From Nitrospiraceae bacterium UBA6905 (lineage in GTDB: Bacteria; Nitrospirota; Thermodesulfovibrionia; Thermodesulfovibrionales; UBA6898): DNA of 64,000 bases. Shown in pieces: positions 525-52,282 of the stretch. The notes under the pieces are model-generated. The model saw only the letters and a program-made list of their open reading frames with translations. It did no database searches and had not been told where the DNA came from. The stretch's first letter is position 1; every line of letters starts with the position of its first letter. The stretch lies in assembly GCA_002451165.1 (NCBI GenBank), contig DKBH01000003.1, positions 38,698 through 102,697 of the forward strand, read 5' to 3'. Both the position numbers and the translations under genes were made by a program.

Positions 525-1298
525 CTATGGCTGTTTTTCTTCGCTTTGCTTCCGGACATTAGGGTCAGTTCCTCCGCCGCCCCTCTTCCCATATTGGTCC
601 AATCGTTCTTGTATCTGCATCACTGTTTGTTTGCCAATGAGCGCTGTTTCCTCTCTGACAGCGCGCTCGATGAGCTTTTCTGCATCCTGTTCCTGCTCCC
701 CATCCAGCATAAGATAGACCACTTCTCCCATCCGTCGGATAATGTCTTCCCGGGTGTTATCCTTGACGATCTTTACCTTGCCATGCTCATACGCAAGAAT
801 GACGGCAATATAATTCTTCCAGAGTTCTTTTTCGATGTCATTGAGCGACGAATCATCGGTGAGCACGGGAAGCGTAACGGTGATGTCATAGAAAAGGTCG
901 ATGTCGTGGATAAGGATATCAATATGCAGTTTATCGTTCTCTTCGTCGTATTCCGTGGTATAGGACAGTTGATAGCTCCAGCCCAGTGACCAGGCAAAGG
1001 TTGATGTCTGACGCTTCCGCGATTTCCTGTCGTATGGACCGTTTTCCTCCGCCGACTTGACGATCTCGGCGTAGGTCCTGCCAAACACCGGATAGAACTC
1101 ATACCGGACGTCGGGTCGAAGGCCCAGGCTCTGGGCGACCGAGTATTTTTGCGATCGGTGAGCCGACTGCGGTAAGGATTTTTTCGGAGCGGACACAAGG
1201 TTTCCCGCTGCATCAAAATGCTGTACGATTTCTCCCCGGGAATTGCTGGGAAGCGATACAACGAGGAGAAATGCGAGCAACAGGGCGTAACGCCTCAT
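525..1298 (-). CDS. Secreted hypothetical protein, DUF922/COG5661-like
   Basis: N-terminal signal peptide (MRRYALLLAFLLVVSLPSNS). The YEFYPVFGRTYAEI...TSTFAWSLGWSY...TLPV...LWKNY...AYEHGK layout matches my recollection of DUF922. The HExxH-like motif is degenerate (YEHGK). Confidence 0.5.
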   Translation of the reverse strand: MRRYALLLAFLLVVSLPSNSRGEIVQHFDAAGNLVSAPKKSLPQSAHRSQKYSVAQSLGLRPDVRYEFYPVFGRTYAEIVKSAEENGPYDRKSRKRQTSTFAWSLGWSYQLSYTTEYDEENDKLHIDILIHDIDLFYDITVTLPVLTDDSSLNDIEKELWKNYIAVILAYEHGKVKIVKDNTREDIIRRMGEVVYLMLDGEQEQDAEKLIERAVREETALIGKQTVMQIQERLDQYGKRGGGGTDPNVRKQSEEKQP

Positions 1299-1403
1299 GC
1301 AGTAAGCATACTCTTCTTTTCCGGCGAAAGCAAATCAGGGAGCGACCTAATTCCGGTTCAATCTGGTACAATATTCACGCGAAAGGAACCATCAGCGCTG
1401 ACC

Positions 1404-2282
1404 ATGGAAGATGTCTACAACATAAAACTGCCGGTTTTCGAAGGCCCGCTTGAACTCCTGCTCCATCTCATCCGGGAGAACAAGGTTGACATCTATGATA
1501 TCCCCATATCCCTCATCACGGGACAATATCTGACCTATATCGAGATGATGAAAGAACTGGACCTGGAGATTGCCGGAGAATTTCTCCTCATGGCTGCAAC
1601 CCTTATCCATATCAAGTCCCGCATGCTTCTCCCCCCTGACGAAGAGGCGCCTATGGAAGAGATGGAGGACCCGCGGCTTGAGCTCGTGCAGCGCCTGCTC
1701 GAGTACCAGGCTTTCCGGGATGCAGCTGGGATCCTGAAGGAGCGGGAGGAGGAGGCGCTCAAGCTCTTCGGACGTGAAAAGACCTCCTTCGACCCTGAGC
1801 GTACAGACGAGCAGCAGGAGCTCTATCTGTTCGACATCAACCTCTTCGATCTGCTCGGCGCATTCAAGAAGATCCTCGATACCGCCCCGCCTGAGGTCAG
1901 GACCATTACGAAGGAAACGCTTACCGTGAAGGACCGTATGATGCATATAGCTGAAAGGCTTGAGCAGGTCGATGCTGTGCGGTTCGAAGAGCTTTTTTCG
2001 GATGTCGGGGGGCGGGTGCAGCTTATCGTTACGTTTCTCGCGCTCCTCGAGCTTCTCCGGCTCGGTCTGGCGCGCGTCTACCAGGAGGGGGAGTTCGGCA
2101 ATATCTGGGTGATCAATCCGAACAGGCGGGCGGCAGACATTGCAGCGCATACAGGAGAAACAGGGGTGGGACGGACGGAGGTTTCGCACAGCGAATATCC
2201 TGCGGAGCAGGCTGTCCCGCATCAGGGATCGCGGGACCTGTCTGGTCCTGCAAACAATGACAAGGTGGTACCACAAGCGGCC
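1404..2282 (+). CDS. scpA: Segregation and condensation protein A (ScpA), with no stop codon before ileS
   Basis: The ATG at 1404 gives MEDVYNIKLPVFEGPLELLLHLIRENKVDIYDIPISLITGQYL, a typical ScpA N-terminus. The ScpA-like part ends near EGEFGNIWVI (about 2110). The frame then stays open into ileS. Confidence 0.8.
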
Positions 2283-5078
2283 ATGACAAGAGACTTCAAG
2301 GATACCCTAAATCTTCCCACAACGGATTTTCCGATGAAGGCCAATCTTTCCCAGCGCGAGCCCGAAATGCTCCGGCATTGGGATGAGGAACATATCTATG
2401 CGCGGATGCAGGAGAAGAACTGTGGTGCTGCAGCATACATCCTTCATGACGGGCCTCCCTATGCGAATGGGCATATTCATATGGGGCATGCTCTGAACAA
2501 GATTCTGAAGGACGTGATCGTAAAGTACAAGACCATGAAGGGATTTTCCGCACCCTACATTCCGGGCTGGGACTGTCATGGCCTGCCGATAGAGCTCCAG
2601 GTGGACAAGAACCTGGGAGACAAGAAGCATGCTGTCGCGATCCTTGAGAAGCGTCAGCTCTGCAGAGAGTATGCAGCGAAGTTCATCGATATTCAGCGCG
2701 ATGAATTCAGGCGGCTAGGGGTATTTGGCGACTGGTCGCAGCCATATCTCACCATGACCTTTGACTATGAGGCCGCAATCGTGCGGGAGTTTCAGACCTT
2801 TCTCAGAAAGGGATATGTCCATAAGAGGAATAAACCCGTGCACTGGTGTCCGTCGTGCGTAACGGCCCTTGCAGAGGCCGAGGTCGAATATGCGGACAAG
2901 GAATCACCTTCGATATTCGTAAAGTTCCCGCTGGACGATGAAAATATCAAGAAATATCTGCCGGAGCTCAGCGGCAGAAAGGTCTCGGTCATCATCTGGA
3001 CGACCACGCCGTGGACGCTGCCGGCAAATCTTGCAATCGCATTTCATCCTGACCTGCAATATGTCGCCGTTGAGCAGGAGGGCGAAGTCTTTATTGTTGC
3101 TGAGGGTCGTCAGGAAGCTCTGAAGGAACGGATAGGACTTTCCGGTGCAGTTCTTGCAAGGCGGGCGGGAAATGATCTTGAGGGAATCGAGGCAGGTCAT
3201 CCATTCATCGCAAGAAGATCACGGGGAGTCCTGGGAGAATTTGTTTCTCTTGAGGAGGGCACGGGCGTTGTGCATATCGCTCCCGGCCATGGTGAGGATG
3301 ATTATGAGATCGGCCTGAAATACGGCTTGGATATTTATGCACCCGTTGATGACGGTGGAAAATTCACGCAGCAGGCGGGAGACCTGCAGGGACAGTTTGT
3401 ATTGAAAGCGAATGACGCGATTCTGGAGAAATTGAAAGCGCAGCACACGCTGATTCGGGAGGAAAAAATATCACACTCCTATCCTCACTGCTGGCGCTGC
3501 AAGAAGCCGGTCATTTTCCGCGCCACGGAACAGTGGTTCATTTCCGTGGAGCACGACGGACTGCGTGCCAAGTGCCTTGAAGAGATCGACCGGGTGGTGT
3601 GGGTACCCAAATGGGGGCGGGAGCGTATCCATGCCATGGTCTCGAACCGCCCTGACTGGTGCGTTTCGCGGCAGCGGAGCTGGGGCGTGCCGATCACCGT
3701 CATCACCTGCAGTGACTGCGGTAAGTTCATACAGGACGAGACCGTGCTTAACACCGTCGTGGACTTCGTGGAACAGCACGGTGCCGACGTCTGGTTCGTC
3801 AAAGCGGCAGAGGAATTTCTGCCGGAGGGATATGCATGTCGTTCATGCGGATCAACAGCGTTTCGCAAGGAGACGGACATCCTTGATGTCTGGTTCGACT
3901 CCGGGGTAAGTCATGCCGCTGTTGTTGAACGCGACCCACGGCTTACCTGGCCGGCGGATCTCTATCTTGAGGGCAGCGACCAGCACCGGGGCTGGTTCCA
4001 GAGCTCGCTTCTTGCGTCGGTCGGTACACGGGGAACCGCGCCTTACCGCACCGTGCTTACTCATGGATTTGTTGTCGACGGTTCAGGAAAGAAGATGTCG
4101 AAGTCGCAGGGGAACGTCATTGCGCCGCAGGAGATCATCAAGAACTACGGTGCCGAGATACTCCGCATATGGGTATCGGCCGAAGACTACCGCGATGATA
4201 TCAGGATATCCAAGGAGATTCTGAACCGGCTCACCGAAGCATACCGCAAGATTAGGAATACCTGCCGGTTCCTTCTCGGGAACCTGGCGGATTTTGATCA
4301 TGCCGATTATTCGGATCGTCTTCAGGAGGTTGACCGCTGGGCCATGAGCCGGCTGCAGGGACTTACCCGCAGAGTGACCCGGGCGTATGAACATTTCGAT
4401 TTTCATGAAGTATTCCATGCGATCCACAACTTCTGCGTCGTCGATATGAGCGCTATTTATCTCGATATCCTTAAGGATAGACTGTACACGGCTAGGACGG
4501 ATGCTGCGGAGCGACGGGCAAGCCAGTGGGCCCTTGCCGAGATCCTTTCCGTCCTGACCCGCCTCATGGCGCCGGTGCTTTCCTTTACTGCCGAGGAGGT
4601 ATGGGGGCATGTCATCACGAAGGGGGTCGGGACCGTTGGCGCGGGCGATGCTTCGGTCTTCCTTGCCTCGTTTCCCGAGGTGCAGGAGAGGTTCATTGAC
4701 GTGGAACTCGAACAGAGATGGAAAGATCTGCTCTTGCTTCGCGACGAGGTGAACAAGGCGCTGGAGATCAAGCGTGCCGAGAAGTTCATCGGCAACTCCC
4801 TTGAGGCGCGGCTCATGATCTATCTGCCCGATGAGTATCGGCAGCTTGCAGCGGCCTATGCAGCATTTCTCCCTGTCTTTTTCCTGGTATCGTCTGTGCA
4901 GCTCAGCGATGAGAGCCTTGAAGATGCCTACGAGGGCGTTGTCGTTAAAGGTCTGCGGATACGGGTGGAGCGTGCAAGGGGCAATAAATGCCAGAGGTGC
5001 TGGAACTGGAGTGAAAGCGTCGGGACCTTCAGCGACATCCCCGAGGTCTGCGATAAGTGCTACGACGTTCTTGCATGA
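2283..5078 (+). CDS. ileS: Isoleucine--tRNA ligase (type 1, C-terminal zinc finger)
   Basis: MTRDFKDTLNLPTTDFPMKANL...HDGPPYANGHIHMGH (HIGH motif), KMSKS present, C-terminal CQRCWNW...CDKC. Confidence 0.95.
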   Translation: MTRDFKDTLNLPTTDFPMKANLSQREPEMLRHWDEEHIYARMQEKNCGAAAYILHDGPPYANGHIHMGHALNKILKDVIVKYKTMKGFSAPYIPGWDCHGLPIELQVDKNLGDKKHAVAILEKRQLCREYAAKFIDIQRDEFRRLGVFGDWSQPYLTMTFDYEAAIVREFQTFLRKGYVHKRNKPVHWCPSCVTALAEAEVEYADKESPSIFVKFPLDDENIKKYLPELSGRKVSVIIWTTTPWTLPANLAIAFHPDLQYVAVEQEGEVFIVAEGRQEALKERIGLSGAVLARRAGNDLEGIEAGHPFIARRSRGVLGEFVSLEEGTGVVHIAPGHGEDDYEIGLKYGLDIYAPVDDGGKFTQQAGDLQGQFVLKANDAILEKLKAQHTLIREEKISHSYPHCWRCKKPVIFRATEQWFISVEHDGLRAKCLEEIDRVVWVPKWGRERIHAMVSNRPDWCVSRQRSWGVPITVITCSDCGKFIQDETVLNTVVDFVEQHGADVWFVKAAEEFLPEGYACRSCGSTAFRKETDILDVWFDSGVSHAAVVERDPRLTWPADLYLEGSDQHRGWFQSSLLASVGTRGTAPYRTVLTHGFVVDGSGKKMSKSQGNVIAPQEIIKNYGAEILRIWVSAEDYRDDIRISKEILNRLTEAYRKIRNTCRFLLGNLADFDHADYSDRLQEVDRWAMSRLQGLTRRVTRAYEHFDFHEVFHAIHNFCVVDMSAIYLDILKDRLYTARTDAAERRASQWALAEILSVLTRLMAPVLSFTAEEVWGHVITKGVGTVGAGDASVFLASFPEVQERFIDVELEQRWKDLLLLRDEVNKALEIKRAEKFIGNSLEARLMIYLPDEYRQLAAAYAAFLPVFFLVSSVQLSDESLEDAYEGVVVKGLRIRVERARGNKCQRCWNWSESVGTFSDIPEVCDKCYDVLA

Positions 5079-26061: not shown

Positions 26062-26142
26062 TTAAATATACGTTCGAAAAAGCCAAACGCACCGCAAGGG
26101 GCGGGCGGAAAGCAACGGGTCTTGCTGAGTACGGAAAGATAG

Positions 26143-26192
26143 CCGAGCTGCCGAATAATTCTAAGGAGTATTCGGTATGCTCGGTTTTTTTT
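26143..26192 (+). terminator. Rho-independent terminator
   Basis: Outer stem CCGAGC/GCTCGG and inner stem CCGAATA/TATTCGG, followed by eight T residues. Confidence 0.7.
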
Positions 26193-26622: not shown

Positions 26623-26799
26623 CGACTACGATGGCATTTTTGACAGCCACGAAGATGCCTGAGACAGGGGATTACGGGCGATTTAGCCATGATTCAGTGC
26701 ATGAGGGAATAAGGACGGAATAGCCATGAAAGGTTACCAGTGAGGGAAAACAGAACAGTAAGCCATCGTTCAGCAGATCTTACGCAGGGCGGTGAACGT

Positions 26800-29325
26800 A
26801 TGCTGCCATACCCAAAAGAAGATCTTCAGCATCTACCCTCTTCTTTGCCGAAGCACAGGCATGATTCTGATCAACGAGTGAAGGCCCTCGGCAAATTTAT
26901 TTATGCTGGCAATGACAAGCTCTGGGTGCGCGGTGTGACCTATGGTACGTTTCGCCCGTGCGCGGATGGTTGCGACTACCCGGAACCAGAGGTGGTACGA
27001 AAGGATTTCGCTCACATTGCCGCCGCGGGAATGAACACGGTACGCACCTATACTGTTCCGCCGCACTGGCTTCTTGAGATCGCGAAGGAACATGGACTGT
27101 ACGTCATGGTAGGCATTGCCTGGGAACAGCATATCGCATTCCTCGATGATAGAGAACGGGTAGAACGTATAAAACGCAGTGTGCGCAGCGCTGTACTCAG
27201 CTGCGCTGCTCAACCTGCAGTGCTCTGCTTTGCCGTCGGTAATGAAATACCGGCTTCCATCGTGCGCTGGCATGGGCGGCGACGTATCGAGCGTTTTATC
27301 AGGGAATTATACGAAATCGTGAAAGACGTTGACGCGGAGAGTCTGGTAACCTATGTAAACTTTCCGACGACGGAATATCTGCAGCTGCCGTTCCTCGATA
27401 TCGTCTGTTTTAATGTGTACCTGGAATCTAAAGGGCGTCTTGAGTCCTATATGGCCCGCCTCCAGAATATCGCCGGTGAGCGGCCCCTGATTATGGCCGA
27501 GATCGGTCTGGACAGCCTGCGTAACGGAGAAGAGGTGCAGGCGAAAACTCTTGACTGGCAGGTCCGCTCAGCTTTTGCTGCGGGATGCGCCGGTGCCATT
27601 GTCTTTGCCTGGACGGACGAGTGGCATAGGGGAGGGTATGATATCGAAGACTGGAATTTTGGCCTTACCACGCGGGAGCGAAGTCCCAAACCATCGCTCT
27701 TTTCGGTCAGTAGGGCCTTCCATGAGGTGCCCTTTTCCCCGGAAACAGCCTGGCCGAGGATTTCCGTTGTGGTGTGCAGTTATAATGGTTCGCGCACGAT
27801 TCGGGACACACTTCAGGGGCTCAGCAGGCTGGATTATCCTGATTACGAAGTTATCGTTGTTAACGACGGCTCCCGTGACGGCACGCCGGCAATAGCCCGT
27901 GAGTTTGATGTCCGTCTGATCTCGACGGAGAACCGCGGACTGAGCAACGCACGTAACACCGGTTGGCAGGAAGCGACCGGAGAAATTGTGGCGTATATAG
28001 ATGATGACGCATACCCGGACAAAGATTGGCTCACCTATATAGCCTATACCTTCCTGACGACTTCATTCATGGGTGTGGGCGGGCCTAATATTGCTCCGCC
28101 CGAAAACGGCATCTTTACCAACAGCGTGGTGCATGCTCCCGGAGGGCCGGTCCATGTGCTCCTCTCAGACCGTGTGGCAGAGCATATTGCCGGATGCAAT
28201 ATGGCGTTCCGCAGGGAAGCGCTGTCAGCGGTCGGCGGCTTTGATCCCCGATTCCGTGCGGCAGGTGATGACGTGGATATCTGCTGGAAGATTCAGCAGA
28301 TGGGCTGGAAGATCGGCTTTAATGCTGCCGCCGTGGTGTGGCATTACCGGCGCGGCACCTTGAAGACCTACTGGAAGCAGCAGCGTGGCTACGGACAGGC
28401 CGAGGCGCTGCTGGAGCAGAAATGGCCGCAAAAATACAATGCAGCCGGCCATATAACATGGTCCGGACGGCTTTACGGAAAGGGAATAGCGCAGCCCATA
28501 AAGACCGGGAAATGGCGTATCTATCATGGCGTTTGGGGTACCGCCCCTTTTCAGCGTTTGTATCAGTCACATCCGCCCCTTTTCTTTTCGCTCATGATGA
28601 TGCCGGAGTGGTATCTGGTCACCGCTTTTCTTGCTGTTCTTGCGGCCATCGGTGTGGTATGGCCACCCCTTCTGTTTATGCTGCCTTTACTGGCAGTCGC
28701 TGTTGGCGCCCCGATTGTGCAGGCAACTATTAATGCAGCGAACATACCGCTCTGTCCCCGCGCACATTGCACGAGGGATCGCCTCCGCATTCGCGCCGTG
28801 GCGGGCTGGCTTCATCTGATACAGCCGGTCGCACGTCTCGCAGGAAGGCTGAGCCGCGGCCTTACCCCGCTGCGGCGGCGCGCCGCGTCAGATCTTTGCC
28901 TGCCGTATTCGCGCACGATCAGGATATGGAAGGAGCAATGGCGTGATCCTGCAGAAAGGATGACAGCGGTAGAAAGCGCGTTGTGTTTTCAGGGGGCGGT
29001 GACCAGGCGCGGTAGTGATTTCGACCGCTATGATCTGGAGGTGCGGGGCGGATTGTTCGGGGCAGTGCGTTTACGCATCGCAATAGAGGACCACGGTGGA
29101 GGCAGGCAGATGGTTCTTTTGCGTGCCTGGCCCATGATTCATCTGCCGGTCCTCTGCATCACGATATTCTTCGCAGTGGTGTGCAGTCTTGCTGTCATTG
29201 ATCATGCATGGATTGCTGCCTCATTGCTGGGCGCCTTTGCAATGATATTCGGCGCACGGTCACTCGGCGACTGTTCTGCGGCTATGTCCACGCTTCGTTG
29301 TGCCATGAGAACGAAAGAAGGATGA
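26800..29325 (+). CDS. Fusion protein: TIM-barrel glycosidase-like domain + family 2 glycosyltransferase (synthase-like) + C-terminal TM region
   Basis: N-terminal domain with VGNEI and MAEIG (clan GH-A-like acid/base and nucleophile Glu). GT2 core ISVVVCSYNGSRTI...VNDGSRDGT...YIDDDAY. A Q-x-x-R-W-like KQQRGYGQAE motif. Hydrophobic helices at the C-terminus. The start is either the ATG at 26800 or the GTG at 26740. Confidence 0.8.
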   Translation: MLPYPKEDLQHLPSSLPKHRHDSDQRVKALGKFIYAGNDKLWVRGVTYGTFRPCADGCDYPEPEVVRKDFAHIAAAGMNTVRTYTVPPHWLLEIAKEHGLYVMVGIAWEQHIAFLDDRERVERIKRSVRSAVLSCAAQPAVLCFAVGNEIPASIVRWHGRRRIERFIRELYEIVKDVDAESLVTYVNFPTTEYLQLPFLDIVCFNVYLESKGRLESYMARLQNIAGERPLIMAEIGLDSLRNGEEVQAKTLDWQVRSAFAAGCAGAIVFAWTDEWHRGGYDIEDWNFGLTTRERSPKPSLFSVSRAFHEVPFSPETAWPRISVVVCSYNGSRTIRDTLQGLSRLDYPDYEVIVVNDGSRDGTPAIAREFDVRLISTENRGLSNARNTGWQEATGEIVAYIDDDAYPDKDWLTYIAYTFLTTSFMGVGGPNIAPPENGIFTNSVVHAPGGPVHVLLSDRVAEHIAGCNMAFRREALSAVGGFDPRFRAAGDDVDICWKIQQMGWKIGFNAAAVVWHYRRGTLKTYWKQQRGYGQAEALLEQKWPQKYNAAGHITWSGRLYGKGIAQPIKTGKWRIYHGVWGTAPFQRLYQSHPPLFFSLMMMPEWYLVTAFLAVLAAIGVVWPPLLFMLPLLAVAVGAPIVQATINAANIPLCPRAHCTRDRLRIRAVAGWLHLIQPVARLAGRLSRGLTPLRRRAASDLCLPYSRTIRIWKEQWRDPAERMTAVESALCFQGAVTRRGSDFDRYDLEVRGGLFGAVRLRIAIEDHGGGRQMVLLRAWPMIHLPVLCITIFFAVVCSLAVIDHAWIAASLLGAFAMIFGARSLGDCSAAMSTLRCAMRTKEG

Positions 29326-35619: not shown

Positions 35620-36066
35620 CTTAAGAGATGTGCGGGCTCACTTGGGTACCGTCGGATATCCCGCAGTGATCCAGTCGTTCCATCCACCCCGAAGTACCGA
35701 GACGTTCCTGTACCCGAATGCCATAAGTTTGAGCGCCACACCGACGCTCGTTTCATGGTTTGTTCAGGAGCAGTAGATGACTATCTTCTGATCAGAAGGA
35801 TAACGTCCCTCCCAGGAGTCCACTTCTGATGCATCAAGCCGCTCGGCGTTCCTGATCTTACGATCGCTCCTCTTCCAATCCTTGCCATACCGTGCATCCA
35901 GAATGATCAGTGACGGTTCATCCAAGATGGCCAGAAGCTCTTCCTTGCTGGTCCAGGTTATCTTGTTCGTATCCTCAGGCTGCACAAACGCAGAACAGGC
36001 TGCCAGAGAAAGAAAAAGTGCCAGCATCACAAGGACTTTCCCGGTCATAGAATCGTTTTTTTTCAT
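35620..36066 (-). CDS. Rhodanese-domain lipoprotein with an in-frame TGA (candidate selenocysteine, or a nonsense mutation)
   Basis: The listed ORF stops at ...KIVIYCS-TGA (35764-66). The same frame continues as TNHETSVGVALKLMAFGYRNVSVLRGGWNDWITAGYPTVPKVSPHIS-TAA. That continuation is the canonical rest of a rhodanese domain. Confidence 0.6.
35722..35757 (-). promoter_or_regulatory. SECIS-like stem-loop downstream of the in-frame UGA
   Basis: The RNA reads UGA-N14-GAGCGUC-GGUGU-GGCGCUC, a 7 bp stem with one G-U pair and a 5 nt loop containing GU. A possible lower stem is CAUGA/UUAUG. Confidence 0.35.
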
Positions 36067-36069: not shown

Positions 36070-36519
36070 TTACTTTGGCGAAAGAACAAGATCAAAGACC
36101 GCTGCTGTTTTGTCTTTTTCCGGATAGTGCTGCGTGACGAGCGTTTGAAATCCCGCTGCAGAAATGCGTAGATGAATGTGTGGCGGTCTGCCGTAATAAG
36201 GCGGCGGGATATGACTTTCAAAACGGAATTCGCCAGCGTTGTCGGAATAAAGCGCTGCGCGGTAATCATCGGCGTATTCGCCGTCAGGCCCTGCCAACCA
36301 CAACTCGATCTTTGCACCGGGAACGGGCAAGCAGGTGTCAGCCGATTTAACGGTACCGGTCAGCATATAGCCCGTGCCGACGTTTGAGCGTGCAGGGGCG
36401 TCAGGCTTATAGAATGGTCCCAGCGCATCAGGTTCCGTAGGCCTGCAGTCTGAGCCGTTCGAGATGCCCCACAAAAGCAACAGAGTACAGAGCATGAGAG
36501 AAACGCTAGATGTTCTCAT
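36070..36519 (-). CDS. Intradiol dioxygenase-like (Dioxygenase_C fold) secreted protein
   Basis: Signal peptide, then TEPDALGPFY...GAKIELW...YYGRPPHIHLRI, the typical intradiol dioxygenase core. It sits 3 nt upstream of the rhodanese start. Confidence 0.7.
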   Translation of the reverse strand: MRTSSVSLMLCTLLLLWGISNGSDCRPTEPDALGPFYKPDAPARSNVGTGYMLTGTVKSADTCLPVPGAKIELWLAGPDGEYADDYRAALYSDNAGEFRFESHIPPPYYGRPPHIHLRISAAGFQTLVTQHYPEKDKTAAVFDLVLSPK

Positions 36520-45291: not shown

Positions 45292-46356
45292 ATGGAACGT
45301 ACCCAGAATTATTTTGATGCCTGGCGCAAGTCGCAGGAGCAGGTTTTTGGCAACCTGACCGAGATGACAAAGAAATTCCAGCAGGCTCTCCAAGGTTTCG
45401 GGGGGAATGGAGCAGGGATGCCGTTCGTTGGCGGATTCCAAGATCTTTATACCTCCTGGACTACGTCGGTATTAAATGCTTTGAAGGGCGCAGAAACAAC
45501 CGACATAAACCTTCTGCGGGAGACCCTTTCCAAAACTCTTGCCGGATCCCATGCCTACCTGAAGCTCTATGAAATATGGCTCCCTCTCTTTAAAGCAATA
45601 CAGGAAAGGGCTGCAAGTCCCGATTCCTACAAGGAGCTGGCTGATCCGGCAAAATACCAGGAGATGCTAAACCATATCTTCGGTTTTGCTCCCGACACAA
45701 CGTCGAGGATCAGCGAGCAGGCCTCAAAGCTCCTTGAAACCCTTGCAGGGTCGTCTCAGGGCTTTACGAGACCCTGGATGGACGCCTATGGAGCGACGCT
45801 CAAGTCTTTTCCCAACGTGTTGGAGGGCCACCCCGAAGAGTTCATGAAGATATTCCATACGTTATTCAGCGCCTTTGACAGTACGGTTGGGAGGGCATTT
45901 CATGTCCCGGCTGTGGGGAAGGACAGGGAGAAGATCGAACTTCTCCTCAGGAGTCTCGACGATCTTTCCGTGTATCTCGCGAGAAAGACCGAATACGAGC
46001 ACATGATGTACATCACGGGCATCGGGGCGTTCGAAAAGGTAATCGCGACGGTTGCGGACAAGGTCGGCAAGGGGGAGAAACTCAAGAAATTCGCTGAATT
46101 CTTCGACCTCTGGCTTGACGTGAGTGAGAAGGCGTACTACGCGCTCTTCCAGACAGAAGAATTCTCGAAGAGGCAGGGGCAATTGCTTGAAGCGTCTCTG
46201 AATGTGCGACAGCACTTCTTTAAGTTAATGGAACTCTATCTCTACGATTTTCCTATCGCACTCCGTTCGGAAATGGATGATCTCTACAAGACGATCTACG
46301 ACCTGAAGAAGAAAGTGAAAAACCTCGAAAAACAGGTCGGGGAGGCACGCGCATGA
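45292..46356 (+). CDS. phaE: Class III PHA synthase subunit PhaE
   Basis: Size of about 354 aa. N-terminal YFDAWRKSQE. C-terminal LRSEMDDLYKTIYDLKKKVKNLEKQV motif. ATGA overlap with phaC. Confidence 0.8.
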   Translation: MERTQNYFDAWRKSQEQVFGNLTEMTKKFQQALQGFGGNGAGMPFVGGFQDLYTSWTTSVLNALKGAETTDINLLRETLSKTLAGSHAYLKLYEIWLPLFKAIQERAASPDSYKELADPAKYQEMLNHIFGFAPDTTSRISEQASKLLETLAGSSQGFTRPWMDAYGATLKSFPNVLEGHPEEFMKIFHTLFSAFDSTVGRAFHVPAVGKDREKIELLLRSLDDLSVYLARKTEYEHMMYITGIGAFEKVIATVADKVGKGEKLKKFAEFFDLWLDVSEKAYYALFQTEEFSKRQGQLLEASLNVRQHFFKLMELYLYDFPIALRSEMDDLYKTIYDLKKKVKNLEKQVGEARA

Positions 46357-47540
46357 AATCGGCATTGGAGACTTTCGACGCAAAGAAATTTATCAAGGAA
46401 CTTGGCGAAGTCAACACCAAACTCATCAAGGGTACAGAAAACCTTGTCGGAATAGATGAGATAGACGTAGGGACTGCACCAAAGGAACTCATCTACGAAG
46501 AAGACAAGCTTAAGCTCTATCACTATACACAGGAAGGCGAGGTCACCTGCGGAGTGCCGGTGCTGATCGTCTACGCCCTCGTAAACCGGCAGTATATGCT
46601 CGATATCCAGCCCGACAGGAGCATCGTAAGGAATCTTCTGAAGCGCGGTATGGACCTCTATATCATTGATTGGGGATACCCGAGAAAGTCGGATATGTAT
46701 CTCACGCTCGACGATTACATCACGGGATATCTGGACAACTGCGTCGATGTTATTATAAAGAGGGCAGGAAAAGACAAGATAAATCTTATGGGCATTTGCC
46801 AGGGCGGGACTTTTTGCGGAATTTATTCTGCACTCTACCCTGAGAAGGTGAAGAATCTTGTTACGCTGGTTGCGCCCTTTGATTTTTCGACGAATGACGG
46901 CCTGCTGTTCAGCTGGGCAAAGAACATGAATGTTGATGCGCTTGTCGATGCCTATCGGATCATCCCGGGGGATTTCCTGAACTCCGGCTTCCTCATGCTG
47001 ATGCCCTTTACCCTCAATGTCAGAAAGTATGTGGACATGCTCGATGTGATAGAAGACAGGGAAAAGCTCCTCAATTTCCTTCGTATGGAAAAATGGATAT
47101 TCGACAGCCCGGGACAGGCAGGAGAATGCCTCAGGCAGTTCATCAAGGATTGTTATCAGGACAACAAGCTCATCAAGGGGGAACTAAGGATAGGCGATCG
47201 TCTGGTTGATCTGAAGAACATAACGATGCCGCTGCTGAATATCTACGCGTCTGCAGACCATCTGGTGCCGCCCGCAGCGACACGGCCGCTCAATGATGCT
47301 GTCGGCACAACGGACAAGACCCTTTACGAATTCAAGGGCGGGCACATTGGTGTCTTCGTCGGGTCCAAATCCCAGAAGGAACTTGCGCCAACTATTGCCA
47401 CGTGGCTTCACGAGCGGGACGGCGAAGGTCATGTCAAGCCCTCTCGTGATCTGAAGAATATGAGGACCGATAAGAGCGGACAGACAGCACCTGACAGGAA
47501 GCATAGCCCTAAGGATAAAGGGCTGCACAAGACGAATTAG
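46353..47540 (+). CDS. phaC: Class III PHA synthase subunit PhaC
   Basis: Lipase-box variant GICQGG and an alpha/beta-hydrolase layout. About 40 aa of basic C-terminal tail. Confidence 0.9.
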   Translation: MKSALETFDAKKFIKELGEVNTKLIKGTENLVGIDEIDVGTAPKELIYEEDKLKLYHYTQEGEVTCGVPVLIVYALVNRQYMLDIQPDRSIVRNLLKRGMDLYIIDWGYPRKSDMYLTLDDYITGYLDNCVDVIIKRAGKDKINLMGICQGGTFCGIYSALYPEKVKNLVTLVAPFDFSTNDGLLFSWAKNMNVDALVDAYRIIPGDFLNSGFLMLMPFTLNVRKYVDMLDVIEDREKLLNFLRMEKWIFDSPGQAGECLRQFIKDCYQDNKLIKGELRIGDRLVDLKNITMPLLNIYASADHLVPPAATRPLNDAVGTTDKTLYEFKGGHIGVFVGSKSQKELAPTIATWLHERDGEGHVKPSRDLKNMRTDKSGQTAPDRKHSPKDKGLHKTN

Positions 47541-47592
47541 AAGCCCGGCCAAAACGTTCCAATCCAGAAATGTAGAAGGGGGAGGTAGTATT

Positions 47593-48336
47593 ATGGAATT
47601 CAGCGGTAAGAATATAATCATAACAGGCGGCGCTCGAGGCATGGGAAAGAAATTTTCTGTAGATTTAAAGCGTCTGGGAGCTAAAGCTTTTGTGGTGGAT
47701 GTGATTCAGGAGAACCTCGACGCGCTCAAGCATGAGGCCGATATTTCGGGTCAGGTTGTCGATGTAAGCAACGAGAAGAGTGTTGAGGCTTTCTTTGAAA
47801 GCTATGTCTCGGCAAACGGTGCGCCTGACGTGTTGATTAACAATGCGGGGATCACTGCCGATGCCCTTTTTATCAAGCAGAAGGGAGATGAGATTACGAA
47901 ATTCCCGTTTGCAAACTGGGAAAAGGTGATCAATGTCAATCTGACTGGCGTATTCCTCTGTGCACGGGAAGCTGCTTACCAGATGGTCAAGAACAAGATT
48001 AAGGGCGTGATAATCAATATCTCATCCATTAGCCGTGCTGGCAACCTCGGACAGACCAATTATTCGGCGACGAAAGCAGCGGTTGATTCAATGACCGTGA
48101 CGTGGGCCAAGGAGCTTTCGAAGTTCGGCATACGGGTGGGAGCCATCGCACCCGGCTATATTAATACCGAAATGGTTGCTAAGATCAGACCCGACGTTCT
48201 CGAAAAAGTTGTTCAGAATATCCCGATCGGGAGATTGGGCGAGATGGAAGAAATTTCGCAGGCAGTTCAGTTCATCATCCGAAATGATTTTTTCACCGGG
48301 AGAATCATGGAAATAGACGGCGGGATGAGGATCTGA
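47593..48336 (+). CDS. phaB: Acetoacetyl-CoA reductase / 3-oxoacyl reductase (SDR)
   Basis: TGGARGMGK, NAG and YSATKAA motifs. Assignment supported by PHA locus context. Confidence 0.75.
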   Translation: MEFSGKNIIITGGARGMGKKFSVDLKRLGAKAFVVDVIQENLDALKHEADISGQVVDVSNEKSVEAFFESYVSANGAPDVLINNAGITADALFIKQKGDEITKFPFANWEKVINVNLTGVFLCAREAAYQMVKNKIKGVIINISSISRAGNLGQTNYSATKAAVDSMTVTWAKELSKFGIRVGAIAPGYINTEMVAKIRPDVLEKVVQNIPIGRLGEMEEISQAVQFIIRNDFFTGRIMEIDGGMRI

Positions 48337-48405
48337 TCCTTTGTGTTATAGCAGGATGTGCTCGGGGCTTAATTTCCAGGAGGCCCCCTTACTTGAGGAG
48401 GAGCT

Positions 48406-49587
48406 ATGGATGCGTATATCGTGGGTGGCGTAAGGACAGCCATCGGGAGGTTCAATGGGTCACTGGCCTCGCTGAACACCATTGACCTCGGATCCGCAGT
48501 TATCAAAGAGGTCATCAGAAGAACGTCAATAAAAGGCACCGAAGTTGATGAAGTCATTATGGGCAATGTCCTCCAGGCAGGATTAGGACAGAACCCTGCG
48601 CGGCAGGCGGCCATTATGGCGGGCCTTCCAGAGAATATCCCTGCATTTACGGTGAATAAGGTATGCGGCTCGGGGTTGAAGTCCGTTGGACTGGCAGGTC
48701 AGGCAATCGCGTCGGGTGAAGCGAATGCCATTATTGCTGGAGGGATGGAGCATATGACCAGTGCACCCTATGTTGTGAAGTCAGCCCGGTGGGGTCAGCG
48801 CCTCGGAAACGCCGAGATGATAGACACACTCGTCAACGATGCCCTGTGGGACATGTTTTATGAATGTCATATGGGTCAGACCGCCGAGAATGTAGCAGAA
48901 AAGTACGGGATTACCCGGGAAGAGCAGGATGCCTTTGCTGCATCCTCTCAGAAGAAAACAGAGCAGTCCATCAAGGAAGGGAAGTTCACGGAAGAGATTG
49001 TCCCCCTGAAGTTAAAACAGCAAAAAGGAGAAGACAAGGTTTTTGACACCGACGAGCATCCCCGATTCGGGACTACCGTCGAGAGTCTTGCAAAACTTCA
49101 GCCGGCATTCAAGAGCGAGGGGACGGTCACCGCAGGGAATGCTTCGGGTATCAACGATGGTGCAGCTGCCGTGCTGGTCGTGTCGAAAGAAAAGATGAAG
49201 GAGTTTGCCCCTGGCTGGGCTTTCAAAATTAAAGGTGCTTCATCTGCAGCGCTGGACCCCGCATTTATGGGGCTCGGTCCTATCAACGCCTGCAAGCAGC
49301 TTATTCACAAGGCCAGGTGTACTGTAAAGGACCTCGATCTTATAGAGATCAATGAGGCGTTTGCATCTCAGTCAATCCAGGTTCACCGAGAAATGGGATG
49401 GAACATGGATAAAGTGAATGTCCTGGGCGGTGCTATTGCACTCGGGCATCCGGTCGGCGCGAGCGGAACAAGGATCCTTGTTACACTCCTTTATGAGATG
49501 GTACGAAGGAATGTGAACCTGGGTCTCGCTTCCCTCTGCATCGGCGGAGGACAGGGTATCGCCATGATCGTTGAGCGCGTCAGATAA
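48406..49587 (+). CDS. phaA: Acetyl-CoA acetyltransferase (thiolase II)
   Basis: VNKVCGSGLKS (active Cys), NEAFA, and GGAIALGHPVGASG...CIGGGQG. Confidence 0.9.
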   Translation: MDAYIVGGVRTAIGRFNGSLASLNTIDLGSAVIKEVIRRTSIKGTEVDEVIMGNVLQAGLGQNPARQAAIMAGLPENIPAFTVNKVCGSGLKSVGLAGQAIASGEANAIIAGGMEHMTSAPYVVKSARWGQRLGNAEMIDTLVNDALWDMFYECHMGQTAENVAEKYGITREEQDAFAASSQKKTEQSIKEGKFTEEIVPLKLKQQKGEDKVFDTDEHPRFGTTVESLAKLQPAFKSEGTVTAGNASGINDGAAAVLVVSKEKMKEFAPGWAFKIKGASSAALDPAFMGLGPINACKQLIHKARCTVKDLDLIEINEAFASQSIQVHREMGWNMDKVNVLGGAIALGHPVGASGTRILVTLLYEMVRRNVNLGLASLCIGGGQGIAMIVERVR

Positions 49588-49896
49588 CTGCCGACTCTTG
49601 GGAGCGCCCTGCTTATGAAAATTTGCAGGTTTGTGAATATCGGAAACAAAAGAATCTGCCCTAACCACAGAGAGAGTTAAGGCATTTTCCTTTTTTTTTC
49701 AGTATACGCTCATCGCAAGAATACGGTATTCGTCTGCACCATACTAAAATTATGGTTTCATGAGTACTTGCTACATTTAATGTCATGTTGACAAGAACGT
49801 CTCACCTTGATAGCTTTTAGTTAAGCACTTGTTTTATACCGGAAACGGATGACCTTTTGATGGAATAATCATGCGTAATACCCAGGAATATTGAAG

Positions 49897-50475
49897 ATGT
49901 TGGAAGAGTATCCTAAAAAAGTAAGACTTAAAGACGGGGCCTTCGTAACCCTGCGGCCGATGACGAGAGATGATGAGCACGGTGTTTACTTGTTCTTCAA
50001 CTCACTTTCTGAAGCTACCAGGCAGTTTCTGAGAAACGACGTGCTCAACAGAAAGATAATCACGGCATGGATGCGTGAGCTGAATTATGAAAAGGTCCTT
50101 CCGATTATCGCGGAATACGAAGGAAAGATTGTGGCTAACGCGACCCTGCACCGCAAGACGTTTGGGTGGGGACGCCATGTCGGCGAGGTCCGGGTAGTGA
50201 TAGATTGCGGCTTCCAGGGCCGTGGGCTGGGGGGTATCCTTTCTGATGAGATGTGCCGTATTGCTGTTGCTGGCGGACTCAAAAAACTGGTTGCAAGGAT
50301 CGTAACCGCCAGGGAAGATGCCATCAAGGCCTTTGAAAGTTCTGGTTTTGAATCCGTAGCAGTACTGAAGAACTATGTCAAGGATATCAATCAGAACTAT
50401 GCAGACATTGCAATTATGGTTAAGGAATTAACCCCCCTTAAAGCTGAGGGATCATTACGGCGGCGCCATGCGTGA
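49897..50475 (+). CDS. GNAT-family acetyltransferase
   Basis: FQGRGLGGILSDEM is an acetyl-CoA-binding Q/RxxGxG/A motif. 8 nt overlap with the downstream thiolase. Confidence 0.7.
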   Translation: MLEEYPKKVRLKDGAFVTLRPMTRDDEHGVYLFFNSLSEATRQFLRNDVLNRKIITAWMRELNYEKVLPIIAEYEGKIVANATLHRKTFGWGRHVGEVRVVIDCGFQGRGLGGILSDEMCRIAVAGGLKKLVARIVTAREDAIKAFESSGFESVAVLKNYVKDINQNYADIAIMVKELTPLKAEGSLRRRHA

Positions 50476-51661
50476 CGTGGTAATTGCAAGCGCTGTTCGC
50501 ACTCCCATAGGCAGTTTCGGCGGGACATTAAAGGAAATACCGGCTGTTGACCTTGGCGGGATTGTCATTAAGGAGGTTCTCACGAGGGCGAGAATACCTG
50601 CCGACAAGGTTGATCTCGTAGTAATGGGGAATGTGCTTCAGGCCGGGCTTGGACAGAACCCTGCCCGCCAGGCAGCAATAAATGGTGGGATTTCACAATA
50701 CATTCCAGCGGTGACCGTGAATGCAGTCTGCGGCTCAGGCTTGGAGGCGGTTATTATGGCTGCTCAGAAGATAAAGGCTGGTGATGCTGAGATCGTAGTG
50801 GCCGGGGGCATGGAGAATATGAGCCAGGCCCCGTATGTTCTGACCCATTCACGGTGGGGTCAACGGATGGGACACAGCCAGATGATTGATGTCATGATCA
50901 ACGACGGACTGTGGTGTTCATTCAGTGATACGCATATGGGTGTTACTGCCGAGAACGTTGCGAAGAAATTCAATCTCAGCCGTGAAGTCCTGGACGCGTA
51001 TTCTGCCATGAGCCAGGCAAAAGCGGAAAAGGCGATTACATCAGGACGGTTCAAGGACGAGATCATAGCCGTTTCGGTACCCCAGAAGAAGGGTGCCCCG
51101 ATTATTCTTGATACAGACGAGTATCCCAAGTTTGGCACGACCCTGGAAAAGCTGGCGAAGCTGAAACCCGTTTTTGACAAGAAAGGGACGATAACTGCCG
51201 GCAACTCCTCCGGGGTAAATGACGGCGCTGCTGCCCTGCTGGTGATGTCAGCCGATAAGGCGTATAAGCTCGGAATAAAGCCGCTGGCTAACATAGTGTC
51301 GTACGATGCAAGGGGTTGTGAGCCCGAACTCATGGGAATAGGCCCTATCTTAGCTGTCCAGAGCGCTATTGCCAAGGTTAAGACTGAACTGGGGAAAGAG
51401 GTAGATCTGGTGGAGCTGAACGAAGCCTTTGCAGCACAGGCTATCGCCTGTCTGACAGCGCTCAATATCGACCCTGAAAAGGTGAATGTCAACGGCGGTG
51501 CCATTGCATTGGGACATCCGATAGGGTGCAGCGGTTCACGGGTATTGGTCACGCTTCTGTATGAGATGCAGAAGCGAAATGCCAAGACGGGTCTTGCCGC
51601 GCTGTGCGTCGGAGGTGGAATGGGATTTGCGATGATTGTAGAACGGGCATGGTACTTCTAA
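50468..51661 (+). CDS. Acetyl-CoA acetyltransferase (second thiolase paralog)
   Basis: VNAVCGSGLEA, NEAFAAQ, and GGAIALGHPIGCSG...CVGGGMG. Confidence 0.9.
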   Translation: MRDVVIASAVRTPIGSFGGTLKEIPAVDLGGIVIKEVLTRARIPADKVDLVVMGNVLQAGLGQNPARQAAINGGISQYIPAVTVNAVCGSGLEAVIMAAQKIKAGDAEIVVAGGMENMSQAPYVLTHSRWGQRMGHSQMIDVMINDGLWCSFSDTHMGVTAENVAKKFNLSREVLDAYSAMSQAKAEKAITSGRFKDEIIAVSVPQKKGAPIILDTDEYPKFGTTLEKLAKLKPVFDKKGTITAGNSSGVNDGAAALLVMSADKAYKLGIKPLANIVSYDARGCEPELMGIGPILAVQSAIAKVKTELGKEVDLVELNEAFAAQAIACLTALNIDPEKVNVNGGAIALGHPIGCSGSRVLVTLLYEMQKRNAKTGLAALCVGGGMGFAMIVERAWYF

Positions 51662-51706
51662 AGCGGATCATCGACGAGTGGTTACCGTCTGAGGACGTTA
51701 TGTCCT

Positions 51707-52282
51707 ATGGAGACTGCGTTGGATAAGCTTGTGGAGCTGCTGATCAAGAACTATCCCAAGAAGGTTCTCCTTGATGATGGGAGTGAGGTCATGTTCAGGC
51801 CACTTCGCAAGGATGACGGAAAAAGCCTTGCCGAATTTTTCAGAAATCTTCCGCTGAAAGACAGAGTTTGCCTGAAAGAGGATGTTTCCGACCCCATGGT
51901 AATAGAAAACTGGATCTGGAATCTCGACTATGACAATGTCCTGCCTATTGTTGCCACGCATGACGATAGGATAGTCGGGGACGCTACGCTTCACTTCAGC
52001 CCCATCGGTTGGACAAAGCATCAGGGCGAGATCAGGATCACTACAGATGTCAATTACCGTGTCAAGGGCTTGGGGACACGGCTAACACAGGATGTCATAC
52101 ATATCGCTCAAGAGCTGGGGCTTGAACAGATAAGCCTCGAAATATCCCCTGAGCTGCAGGAGGCATTTCTCCTCTGTCAGAAACTTGGTTTTAAACAGGA
52201 GGCCGTACTGAAAGGGTTTATCATGGATCTCGAAGGCAAAGAAACAGACCTGGTGTTAATGATCAAACATCTGAATGCATGA
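51707..52282 (+). CDS. GNAT-family acetyltransferase (paralog of 49897-50475)
   Basis: Aligns along its length with the first GNAT (NYPKKVLLDDGSEVMFRPLRKDD versus EYPKKVRLKDGAFVTLRPMTRDD). YRVKGLGTRL motif. Confidence 0.7.
   Translation: METALDKLVELLIKNYPKKVLLDDGSEVMFRPLRKDDGKSLAEFFRNLPLKDRVCLKEDVSDPMVIENWIWNLDYDNVLPIVATHDDRIVGDATLHFSPIGWTKHQGEIRITTDVNYRVKGLGTRLTQDVIHIAQELGLEQISLEISPELQEAFLLCQKLGFKQEAVLKGFIMDLEGKETDLVLMIKHLNA

What the first reader, a model, noticed from the sequence alone, without database searches (positions are those of the whole stretch)
35620..36066. Rhodanese gene with an in-frame TGA at a Cys-equivalent position plus a SECIS-like hairpin: candidate selenoprotein
The annotated 100-aa ORF ends at ...KIVIYCS-TGA, inside the rhodanese active-site loop.

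Reading through the TGA in the same frame gives 47 more codons: TNHETSVGVALKLMAFGYRNVSVLRGGWNDWITAGYPTVPKVSPHIS. These are exactly the conserved remainder of a rhodanese domain, and the frame ends at a TAA at 35620-22.

From memory, a rhodanese subfamily carries YC-x-C-P-x-E-x-S at this site. If so, the TGA aligns with a Cys codon, which is the classic Sec/Cys pattern. The resulting motif would be C-S-U.

Fourteen nt after the UGA the mRNA can form GAGCGUC-GGUGU-GGCGCUC. This is a 7 bp stem with an apical loop containing GU, and a further lower stem (CAUGA/UUAUG) is possible. The geometry is similar to bacterial SECIS elements.

The alternative is a recent TGC/TGG-to-TGA nonsense mutation. The window does contain one clearly decayed gene elsewhere.
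Basis: partly seen in the sequence, partly recalled or inferred. Interest (0 to 1): 0.7.

Follow-up and report, generated by a model that had tools for sequence, protein, structure and literature searches.

The report
Selenocysteine rhodanese lipoprotein gene, mis-annotated as truncated
The "premature" TGA in this small rhodanese gene is a real selenocysteine codon with its own RNA hairpin signal, but the protein belongs to an already catalogued selenoprotein family, so it is a correct call and an ordinary finding.

Summary
The minus-strand gene (36048/36066 to 35638) has an in-frame TGA at 35766-35764. After it come 41 conserved codons, not 47, and the real stop is TGA at 35640-35638, not TAA at 35620.

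- All 15 distinct orthologues (41-80% identity, Nitrospirota MAGs and metagenomes) carry TGA at this column. Their true terminators vary between TGA, TAA and TAG.
- The downstream codons are under purifying selection (dN/dS 0.05-0.3).
- The hairpin GAGCGUC-GGUGU-GGCGCUC, 14 nt after the UGA, is kept in all of them. It shows two compensatory synonymous double changes and strongly reduced synonymous variation (p about 3e-5). It meets the published bacterial SECIS model.
- Full-length homologues carry Cys (TGT) at this column.
- The read-through protein scores 135 bits against NCBIfam NF041203 "rhodanese_LYCAU, rhodanese-related (seleno)protein" (cut-off 115). Reviews list this CxU family as predicted since 2005.

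It is therefore a new member of a known selenoprotein family. In this clade it is a lipoprotein, and it usually sits just downstream of an exported intradiol-dioxygenase-like gene. No Sec machinery lies in the window, so that test remains open. The biochemical function is unknown.

The parts
35638..36066 (-). Full selenoprotein CDS. The ATG at 36066 gives 142 aa. The conserved ATG at 36048 gives 136 aa and is the more likely start. Sec codon at 35766-35764; true stop TGA at 35640-35638. The product is a single rhodanese domain behind a lipoprotein signal peptide.
   Evidence: sequence and translation. Pfam Rhodanese 48.2 bits for the read-through. NF041203 135.2 bits against a cut-off of 115; orthologues have the same architecture.
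35764..35766 (-). In-frame UGA read as selenocysteine (U101 in 142-aa numbering; motif I-Y-C99-S-U101).
   Evidence: TGA at this column in every orthologue, while real terminators are TGA, TAA or TAG. Cys (TGT) in full-length homologues; 87 of 122 database homologues are truncated exactly after YC[AST].
35731..35749 (-). SECIS upper hairpin: 7-bp stem GAGCGUC/GGCGCUC with the 5-nt apical loop GGUGU (35742-35738). There are 21 nt between the UGA and the loop. MFE -11.6 kcal/mol.
   Evidence: 98% of cells paired across 16 sequences, with compensatory G-C to C-G (L018) and C-G to U-A (L022); synonymous entropy 0.31 versus 1.17 bits, p = 3e-5; meets the bSECIS model constraints; unique in the window.
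35721..35758 (-). Optional lower stem of the SECIS (CCAUGA 35758-35753 with UUAUGG 35726-35721) enclosing the upper hairpin.
   Evidence: part of the MFE and centroid folds; only 72% of cells paired in orthologues, with 3 pairs changed on both sides. Weakly supported.
35995..36006 (-). Lipobox L-A-A-C (residues 21-24). Cys24 is the predicted lipidated first residue of the mature protein.
   Evidence: Sequence. Cys24 is invariant and a lipobox-like L-x-[AS/G]-C is present in all 12 aligned orthologues. lgt is present in the window. Assignment is by consensus only, so this is an inference.
35770..35772 (-). Codon for the invariant Cys99. It aligns with the catalytic Cys65 of GlpE and forms the C-x-U pair with Sec101.
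   Evidence: invariant in 29 of 29 family members; hhalign to GlpE; it is the first loop residue after the strand in the AF2 model of Cys homologue P0014.
36070..36519 (-). Upstream neighbour, probably co-transcribed: an exported mini intradiol-dioxygenase-like protein (GPFY ... RPPHIH motifs). Its stop lies 3 nt before the ATG at 36066.
   Evidence: Pfam Dioxygenase_C (weak). TIGR02465 45 bits, far below cut-off; found immediately upstream of the rhodanese gene in 12 of about 16 informative loci. A functional link is inferred, not shown.

Best explanation
This is a genuine bacterial selenoprotein gene.

**Recoding (inferred from the textbook bacterial mechanism).** During translation, the hairpin at 35749-35731, which starts 14 nt after the UGA, is bound by the Sec-specific elongation factor SelB carrying Sec-tRNA(Sec). 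The UGA at 35766-35764 is then read as selenocysteine instead of stop. Translation continues for 41 codons to the real stop at 35640-35638.

**Product.** The protein is 136-142 aa and is exported. It is probably lipid-anchored through Cys24 and has a single rhodanese domain. It belongs to the curated family NF041203 (rhodanese_LYCAU, "rhodanese form 3, CxU").

**Active site.** Its active-site loop is two residues longer than in classical rhodaneses. It carries the invariant Cys99 at the canonical catalytic position and Sec101 two residues later.

**Chemistry (inferred).** The most likely chemistry is a thiol/selenol couple. Cys99 and Sec101 would accept and pass on, or reduce, a sulfur, selenium or oxyanion substrate outside the cytoplasm through a transient Se-S bond. 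The substrate is unknown.

**Shown here:** the conserved UGA, the Sec/Cys pair, the conserved and covarying hairpin, purifying selection downstream, and family membership.

**Inferred:** SelB-dependent insertion, lipidation, and the chemistry.
For: -: TGA at the same column in all 15 distinct orthologues (41-80% identity). True stops vary (TGA, TAA, TAG), and the downstream 41 codons stay in frame and conserved.
- downstream dN/dS is 0.05-0.33, similar to upstream (0.08-0.24).
- the hairpin is kept in 16 of 16 sequences with 98% of cells paired. There are two compensatory double substitutions, both at synonymous sites.
- synonymous codon entropy is 0.31 bits in codons +5..+12 against 1.17 elsewhere (permutation p = 3e-5).
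- it satisfies all four bSECIS model constraints given in PMC13188914. These are a 3-9 nt loop, G in the first two loop positions, 16-37 nt spacing (here 21), and MFE at or below -7.5 (here -11.6).
- Cys forms (TGT in L021) lack the hairpin. A Gly form (GGA in L020) keeps a decayed one.
- database "Trp" forms are TGA translated with table 4.
- NF041203 scores 135.2 bits against a cut-off of 115.
- the CxU rhodanese selenoprotein family is listed in two reviews.
- TGA is the commonest ordinary stop in the window (32 of 59 long ORFs), so the genome uses the standard code.
- a closely related MAG (UBA6898) carries a second split selenoprotein (Prx-like, W-U-P-Y-C) 760 nt downstream of its orthologue. 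The lineage therefore decodes Sec.
- rhodanese fold, with Cys99 aligned to the catalytic Cys of GlpE.
Against: - No selA, selB, selC or selD gene and no tRNA-Sec lie in the 64-kb window or the fetched loci. The machinery in this genome is assumed, not seen.
- There is no experimental evidence of Se incorporation for this family; the reviews list it as predicted.
- The hairpin's folding energy alone is not significant (z = -1.8).
- The alignments disagree on which of Cys99 and Sec101 occupies the canonical catalytic position. An ungapped match to 6mxv domain 1 puts Sec there. hhalign to GlpE, 6mxv domain 2 and the AF2 secondary structure put Cys99 there.
- The lower stem is poorly conserved.
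Confidence: 0.9

Rival explanations
1. Recent nonsense mutation (TGC or TGG to TGA). On this view the gene is a pseudogene producing a truncated, inactive 94-100-aa fragment.
For: All public gene calls stop at the TGA. The truncated product falls below the Pfam threshold.
Against: The same TGA is present in 15 distinct orthologues down to 41% identity. The downstream frame is intact and under purifying selection. The nucleotide-level hairpin is conserved with compensatory changes. A random nonsense mutation would not be shared across this divergence.
Confidence: 0.02
2. UGA is read through without selenocysteine. One route is a reassigned code (table 4 Trp or table 25 Gly). The other is near-cognate or suppressor decoding (Trp or Cys) in an organism that has lost the Sec machinery.
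For: Some database entries show W at this column. Sec machinery was not seen in the window.
Against: TGA is the commonest terminator of long ORFs in the window (32 of 59), and it terminates this very gene. The W entries are a table-4 gene-calling artefact on short contigs. A conserved, covarying hairpin at bSECIS distance has no role in simple read-through. Lineages that gave up Sec show TGT or GGA at this column with the hairpin lost or decaying.
Confidence: 0.05
3. The hairpin is conserved only because it encodes the conserved peptide T-S-V-G-V-A-L. It would then not be an RNA signal, and the conserved UGA would have some other explanation.
For: The peptide E-[TS]-S-V-[GS]-V-A-L is itself highly conserved.
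Against: Four- and six-fold degenerate codons in this stretch are almost frozen: AGC 13/14, GTC 11/11, GGT 8/8, GTG 13/13, GCG 13/14 and CTC 13/14. Equally conserved residues elsewhere use 2-4 codons freely. The few changes that occur are paired across the stem and synonymous. The Cys homologue L021 encodes a similar peptide without the hairpin.
Confidence: 0.03

Closest known systems
NCBIfam NF041203 rhodanese_LYCAU, "rhodanese-related (seleno)protein". [quoted passage not shown]
   Same: It scores above the curated equivalog cut-off (135.2 against 115, full-length match 5-126 of 126). It has the same [LIVF]-Y-C-[AS]-U motif, a single rhodanese domain behind a signal peptide, and Sec/Cys alternation at the same column.
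   Different: The local motif is I-Y-C-S-U rather than L-Y-C-A-U. This Nitrospirota clade has a lipobox rather than a plain signal peptide. It is usually preceded by a dioxygenase-like gene. At 135 bits it is among the more divergent members; L018 and L022 score 167-177.
Bacterial SECIS elements as modelled by bSECISearch (Zhang and Gladyshev 2005, as summarised in PMC13188914); the prototype is E. coli fdhF/SelB.
   Same: A stem-loop inside the coding region immediately 3' of the UGA. It has a small apical loop starting with G followed by G/U, 21 nt between the UGA and the loop, and MFE -11.6.
   Different: The sequence is unrelated to the E. coli elements. No SelB binding has been tested. 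There is no Rfam family match.
Single-domain rhodanese sulfurtransferases such as E. coli GlpE (1gmx) and the Francisella rhodanese-like protein 6mxv.
   Same: Same fold: Foldseek E 1e-8 to 1e-6, TM about 0.65. The profile hit to 6mxv is 5.5e-22. The invariant Cys follows the central strand.
   Different: The active-site loop is two residues longer and carries a second redox residue (Sec or Cys) at +2. The protein is exported or lipid-anchored rather than cytoplasmic. GlpE's NCBIfam model scores only 16 bits.
Rhodanese-related sulfurtransferase selenoproteins of the Olavius delta-proteobacterial symbionts, including a UxU form (PMC1976440).
   Same: A Sec-containing rhodanese with a second redox residue two positions away. 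It is abundant in anaerobic sulfur-cycling bacteria.
   Different: Here the first position is Cys (CxU), not Sec. The lineage is Nitrospirota, not Deltaproteobacteria. I did not align to those sequences.
Sud, the periplasmic polysulfide-sulfur transferase of Wolinella succinogenes (1qxn).
   Same: An exported single-domain rhodanese in an anaerobe. It gives a weak profile hit over the whole domain (E 0.0069).
   Different: It has one Cys, no Sec and a canonical loop length. The similarity is too weak to transfer function.

Membership tests
NCBIfam NF041203 rhodanese_LYCAU (rhodanese-related selenoprotein, CxU) | HMM score at or above the curated equivalog cut-off (115 bits) over the full model | tested here: met
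   135.2 bits, residues 21-142 on profile positions 5-126 of 126 (Sec entered as Cys).
NCBIfam NF041203 rhodanese_LYCAU (rhodanese-related selenoprotein, CxU) | [LIVF]-Y-C-[AS]-U/C motif in the rhodanese active-site loop | tested here: met
   I-Y-C-S-TGA; 87 of 122 homologues end at [LFIV]YC[AST], and 9 full-length ones have Cys next.
NCBIfam NF041203 rhodanese_LYCAU (rhodanese-related selenoprotein, CxU) | Rhodanese fold | tested here: met
   Pfam PF00581 48.2 bits; the AF2 model of Cys homologue P0014 (pLDDT 87.6) matches rhodanese structures. The model is of a homologue, not of the window protein itself.
Bacterial selenoprotein gene (SelB/SECIS-dependent UGA recoding) | In-frame UGA conserved among orthologues, with conserved coding sequence on both sides | tested here: met
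Bacterial selenoprotein gene (SelB/SECIS-dependent UGA recoding) | Homologues with Cys aligned to the UGA (Sec/Cys pair) | tested here: met
   P0014, P0027, P0029, P0034, P0045, P0068, P0073 and P0092. TGT confirmed in L021.
Bacterial selenoprotein gene (SelB/SECIS-dependent UGA recoding) | Stem-loop immediately downstream that fits the bSECIS model (3-9 nt loop, G in the first two loop positions, 16-37 nt from the UGA, MFE at or below -7.5) | tested here: met
   (criteria from PMC13188914); loop GGUGU, 21 nt spacing, -11.6 kcal/mol.
Bacterial selenoprotein gene (SelB/SECIS-dependent UGA recoding) | Evolutionary support for the RNA structure (covariation, synonymous constraint) | tested here: met
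   2 compensatory pairs in the upper helix and 98% paired, against 30-46% in the slid controls; p = 3e-5. Caveat: there are few independent events, and 4 of 7 pairs never vary.
Bacterial selenoprotein gene (SelB/SECIS-dependent UGA recoding) | selA, selB, selC (tRNA-Sec) and selD present in the same genome | not testable with these tools
   None is present in the window or loci, and the rest of the genome is not available. Two lines of indirect support exist. A second Sec gene sits next to the orthologue in MAG UBA6898. Reviews report selC nested in selB in Nitrospirae.
Bacterial selenoprotein gene (SelB/SECIS-dependent UGA recoding) | Selenium demonstrated in the protein | not testable with these tools
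   This needs 75Se labelling or mass spectrometry. The family is listed as "predicted" in PMC9312934.
Classical thiosulfate sulfurtransferase (GlpE/PspE type) | Six-residue active-site loop C-X5 with a single catalytic Cys, and a score above the family cut-off | tested here: not met
   GlpE model 16.4 bits against a cut-off of 102; a two-residue insertion (U/C-P) in the loop relative to GlpE.
Bacterial lipoprotein | Signal peptide ending in the lipobox [LVI][ASTVI][GAS]C | tested here: met
   Sequence L-A-A-C at residues 21-24. The Cys is invariant in orthologues. This is a consensus match only; no dedicated predictor or experiment was used.

The most novel reading that the evidence does not exclude
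In this Nitrospirota clade the CxU selenoprotein may be one half of an undescribed two-gene extracytoplasmic module. The pieces are a lipid-anchored rhodanese with an expanded Cys-x-Sec loop and, translationally coupled to it, an exported mini intradiol-dioxygenase-like (Fe-binding RPPHIH) protein. Together they might process a sulfur, selenium or metalloid species outside the cytoplasm. On this reading Sec is not the classical rhodanese nucleophile but a resolving partner sitting in a two-residue loop insertion.
Probability: 0.15. Interest if true: 0.45.

Novelty: new member of a known kind. Interest (0 to 1): 0.2.

Why it matters
The main value is practical.
- Every public record of this gene and of 87 of its 122 closest database relatives is stored as a truncated "hypothetical protein" of about 94 aa. 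Another 14 carry a W at this column; the one I checked at DNA level (L022) is TGA translated as Trp with the wrong code table.
- Recognising the Sec codon restores a complete exported rhodanese. It also flags this uncultured Nitrospirota lineage as a selenium user.
- The family has no known function. The observation that the invariant Cys, not the Sec column, matches the canonical catalytic position gives experimenters a concrete C-x-U hypothesis. So do the natural Ser, Gly and deletion variants.

None of this changes how selenoprotein synthesis is understood.

Tried and rejected
- **Sec machinery in the window.** ARAGORN found no tRNA at all. The Rfam gathering scan found only a c-di-GMP riboswitch. 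Pfam annotation of all large ORFs at 0-29 kb and the precomputed annotation of 26-64 kb showed no selA, selB or selD. The outcome is not informative rather than negative.
- **tRNA scan of 11 related loci.** Nothing found.
- **Other split selenoprotein genes in the window.** I listed ORF pairs joined by a single TGA. It returned 74 mostly spurious pairs with nothing convincing apart from the target. I dropped this line.
- I modelled the Cys homologue P0014 instead.
- **DNA for two W-form proteins.** P0018 and P0026 were not retrievable. Only one W form (L022) could be checked at DNA level.
- **A look-up with a window ORF failed**, probably because the called start differs.
- **Nonsense mutation, alternative genetic code and peptide-only conservation of the hairpin** were each considered and rejected (see rivals).
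- **Ordinary GlpE-type sulfurtransferase** was considered and rejected: it scores far below cut-off and the loop is longer.

Full report
**What is in the sequence**

On the minus strand an ORF starts at ATG 36066. A second, conserved ATG lies at 36048. The ORF runs 100 codons to TGA at 35766-35764, ending ...KIVIYCS.

In the same frame, 41 further codons follow: TNHETSVGVALKLMAFGYRNVSVLRGGWNDWITAGYPTVPK. They end at a second TGA at 35640-35638. Everything else it described is present.

The truncated product scores 20.6 bits on Pfam Rhodanese, below the 22.2 cut-off, and covers profile positions 2-69. The read-through product scores 48.2 bits over positions 2-100 of 102. The TGA therefore cuts a rhodanese domain in two at its active-site loop.

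**Is the TGA a mutation or a signal?**

A protein search returned 12 relatives of 91-95 aa. All stopped at exactly the same place...[IVL]YC[SA]. I fetched DNA for these and for further relatives from GTDB genomes and JGI metagenomes.

- All 15 distinct orthologues, at 41-80% protein identity, have TGA at this column.
- Their real terminators are TGA, TAA or TAG.
- The 41 downstream codons stay in frame and are conserved.
- Nei-Gojobori dN/dS for the post-TGA segment is 0.05-0.33. The upstream part gives 0.08-0.24.
- The four genome hits are Nitrospirae/Nitrospiraceae MAGs.
- TGA is also the commonest ordinary stop of long ORFs in the window (32 of 59), and it terminates this gene. A reassigned genetic code is therefore excluded.

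A nonsense mutation cannot explain a TGA shared across this divergence with purifying selection on both sides.

**The hairpin**

The hairpin GAGCGUC-GGUGU-GGCGCUC occupies 35749-35731 and begins 14 nt after the UGA. On its own it is unremarkable: in an 81-nt context z = -1.8.

Across 16 sequences the 7-bp upper stem is paired in 98% of cells, against 30-46% when the 3' partners are slid. Two pairs changed on both sides, G-C to C-G in L018 and C-G to U-A in L022. A U-G to C-G change occurs in three sequences. The compensatory changes are synonymous: ACG/CTC to ACC/CTG, and AGC/GCG to AGT/GCA.

Codon usage over the hairpin is almost frozen. The counts are AGC 13/14, GTC 11/11, GGT 8/8, GTG 13/13, GCG 13/14 and CTC 13/14. 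Mean synonymous entropy is 0.31 bits for codons +5 to +12 against 1.17 bits for other four- and six-fold codons of the gene (permutation p = 3e-5).

The element meets all four constraints of the published bacterial SECIS model (PMC13188914):
- The apical loop is 5 nt.
- The first loop position is G followed by G. In five sequences the loop is AGUGU, which fits the N1-G-U-N-N2 pattern.
- There are 21 nt between the UGA and the loop.
- The MFE is -11.6 kcal/mol.

It is only 72% paired in orthologues, so I regard it as optional.

**The Sec/Cys pair and family membership**

A profile search with the 12 read-through orthologues found 981 relatives. Of the 122 sequences retrieved across the two searches and the cluster look-up:
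- 87 are cut off exactly after [LFIV]YC[AST]
- 14 show W at the next position
- 9 show C
- 5 show S
- 2 have a two-residue deletion
- 1 shows G and 1 shows D

At DNA level, one W form (L022) is really TGA translated with table 4 by the gene caller. The Cys form L021 has TGT and no hairpin. The Gly form L020 has GGA, one step from TGA, with a partly decayed hairpin.

The read-through protein scores 135.2 bits on NCBIfam NF041203 "rhodanese_LYCAU, rhodanese-related (seleno)protein", an equivalog model with cut-off 115. Two more distant orthologues score 167 and 177.

Two reviews list this family as a predicted selenoprotein first found with bSECISearch in 2005. [quoted passage not shown] A UxU variant was reported in Olavius symbionts (PMC1976440). 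The gene is therefore a new member of a known selenoprotein family.

**Where Sec sits in the fold**

Cys99 is invariant in all 29 aligned family members, whereas the Sec column varies.
- An AlphaFold model of the Cys homologue P0014 (pLDDT 87.6) has the central strand ending at the Tyr. A six-residue loop C-A-C-P-N-E follows, and then the helix.
- The model matches single-domain rhodaneses.
It treats the Sec/Cys-Pro dipeptide as a two-residue insertion.
- The gapped HMM alignment to 6mxv domain 2 agrees. The ungapped alignment to 6mxv domain 1 instead puts Sec on the catalytic Cys.
- Natural variants with a two-residue deletion keep only the first Cys.

On balance, Sec is a second, family-specific redox residue two positions after the canonical catalytic Cys, in an enlarged loop. 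This points to a thiol/selenol couple forming a transient Se-S bond rather than a simple persulfide carrier. That is inference; no substrate is known.

**Location and context**

The N-terminus is a signal peptide ending in the lipobox L-A-A-C. Its Cys is invariant in the clade, and lgt is in the window. The mature protein is thus probably a lipoprotein facing the periplasm.

Three nucleotides upstream of the ATG at 36066 ends a gene for an exported protein of about 141-149 aa. It has intradiol-dioxygenase motifs (GPFY, RPPHIH), a weak Pfam Dioxygenase_C hit, and 45 bits on TIGR02465, far below cut-off. This gene lies directly upstream of the rhodanese gene in 12 of about 16 informative loci. 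It is absent in L004, L007, L008 and L018. No promoter or terminator of note separates the two genes.

**Sec machinery**

None of selA, selB, selC or selD is in the window or in any fetched locus. This condition remains untested. Two things give indirect support:
- In the related MAG UBA6898 (80% identical orthologue, same synteny), a second split gene lies 760 nt downstream. It reads through TGA as a complete AhpC/TSA domain with motif W-U-P-Y-C, the known Prx-like UxxC selenoprotein.
- The reviews report Sec machinery, with selC nested in selB, in Nitrospirae.

**Verdict**

The selenoprotein interpretation is supported with about 0.9 confidence. The item is a new member of a catalogued family using the textbook mechanism, so interest is low.

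What remains open is the function of the family, the role of the C-x-U pair, and a possible partnership with the dioxygenase-like neighbour.

Noticed in passing
window 26073-26156 (+): A c-di-GMP-I-GGC riboswitch aptamer (Rfam RF03167, 65.5 bits against gathering 59). It lies about 580 nt upstream of an 861-aa glycosyl-hydrolase/glycosyltransferase-2 fusion gene (26740-29325) and an ABC exporter. This looks like a c-di-GMP-controlled exopolysaccharide locus.
   Followed up: no
window 1218-5078 (+): One uninterrupted 1286-codon ORF holds a ScpA domain (residues 84-298) and, after a linker of about 60 residues, a complete class-I tRNA synthetase beginning MTRDFKDTLNLP. scpA has no in-frame stop before the synthetase gene. 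It could be a real fusion, a lost stop codon, or simply the synthetase ORF extended upstream.
   Followed up: partly
window 36070-36519 (-): An exported mini intradiol-dioxygenase-like protein (GPFY ... RPPHIH) ends 3 nt before the selenoprotein gene. It is conserved in that position in 12 of about 16 informative related loci. Its function and any link to the rhodanese are unknown.
   Followed up: partly
L001 11049-11741 (+) (same in L002/L006, MAG UBA6898): A second mis-annotated selenoprotein. It was called as 95 aa plus a 130-aa AhpC-TSA gene, but it is one frame through TGA with motif FYRGIW-U-PYC, a Prx-like UxxC protein. The read-through covers AhpC-TSA positions 1-123 of 124. This gene and its 132-aa neighbour are absent from the window, where only about 290 nt separate the rhodanese gene from the epimerase gene.
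   Followed up: partly
L022 199-567; database proteins P0015, P0016, P0018, P0019, P0021, P0026, P0028, P0030, P0032, P0043: Fourteen full-length database homologues carry Trp at the Sec column. The one whose DNA could be read (L022) has TGA there, so the protein was produced with translation table 4 on a short contig. This is a systematic artefact that hides selenoproteins as Trp forms.
   Followed up: partly
L020 35-460: This homologue has GGA (Gly) at the Sec column, one substitution from TGA. A partly decayed copy of the SECIS hairpin remains (5 of 7 pairs left). It looks like a recent loss of Sec.
   Followed up: partly
L013 1663-1899 and L015: In this orthologue only 36 codons are open upstream of the Sec TGA, although tblastn matches residues 7-142. 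There is therefore a stop or frameshift in the N-terminal half. It could be a pseudogene or an assembly error.
   Followed up: no
window 45292-52282 (+): A polyhydroxyalkanoate cluster: class III PHA synthase subunits PhaE and PhaC, a short-chain reductase, two thiolases and acetyltransferases. It is ordinary, but it shows carbon-storage capacity in this Nitrospirota MAG.
   Followed up: no
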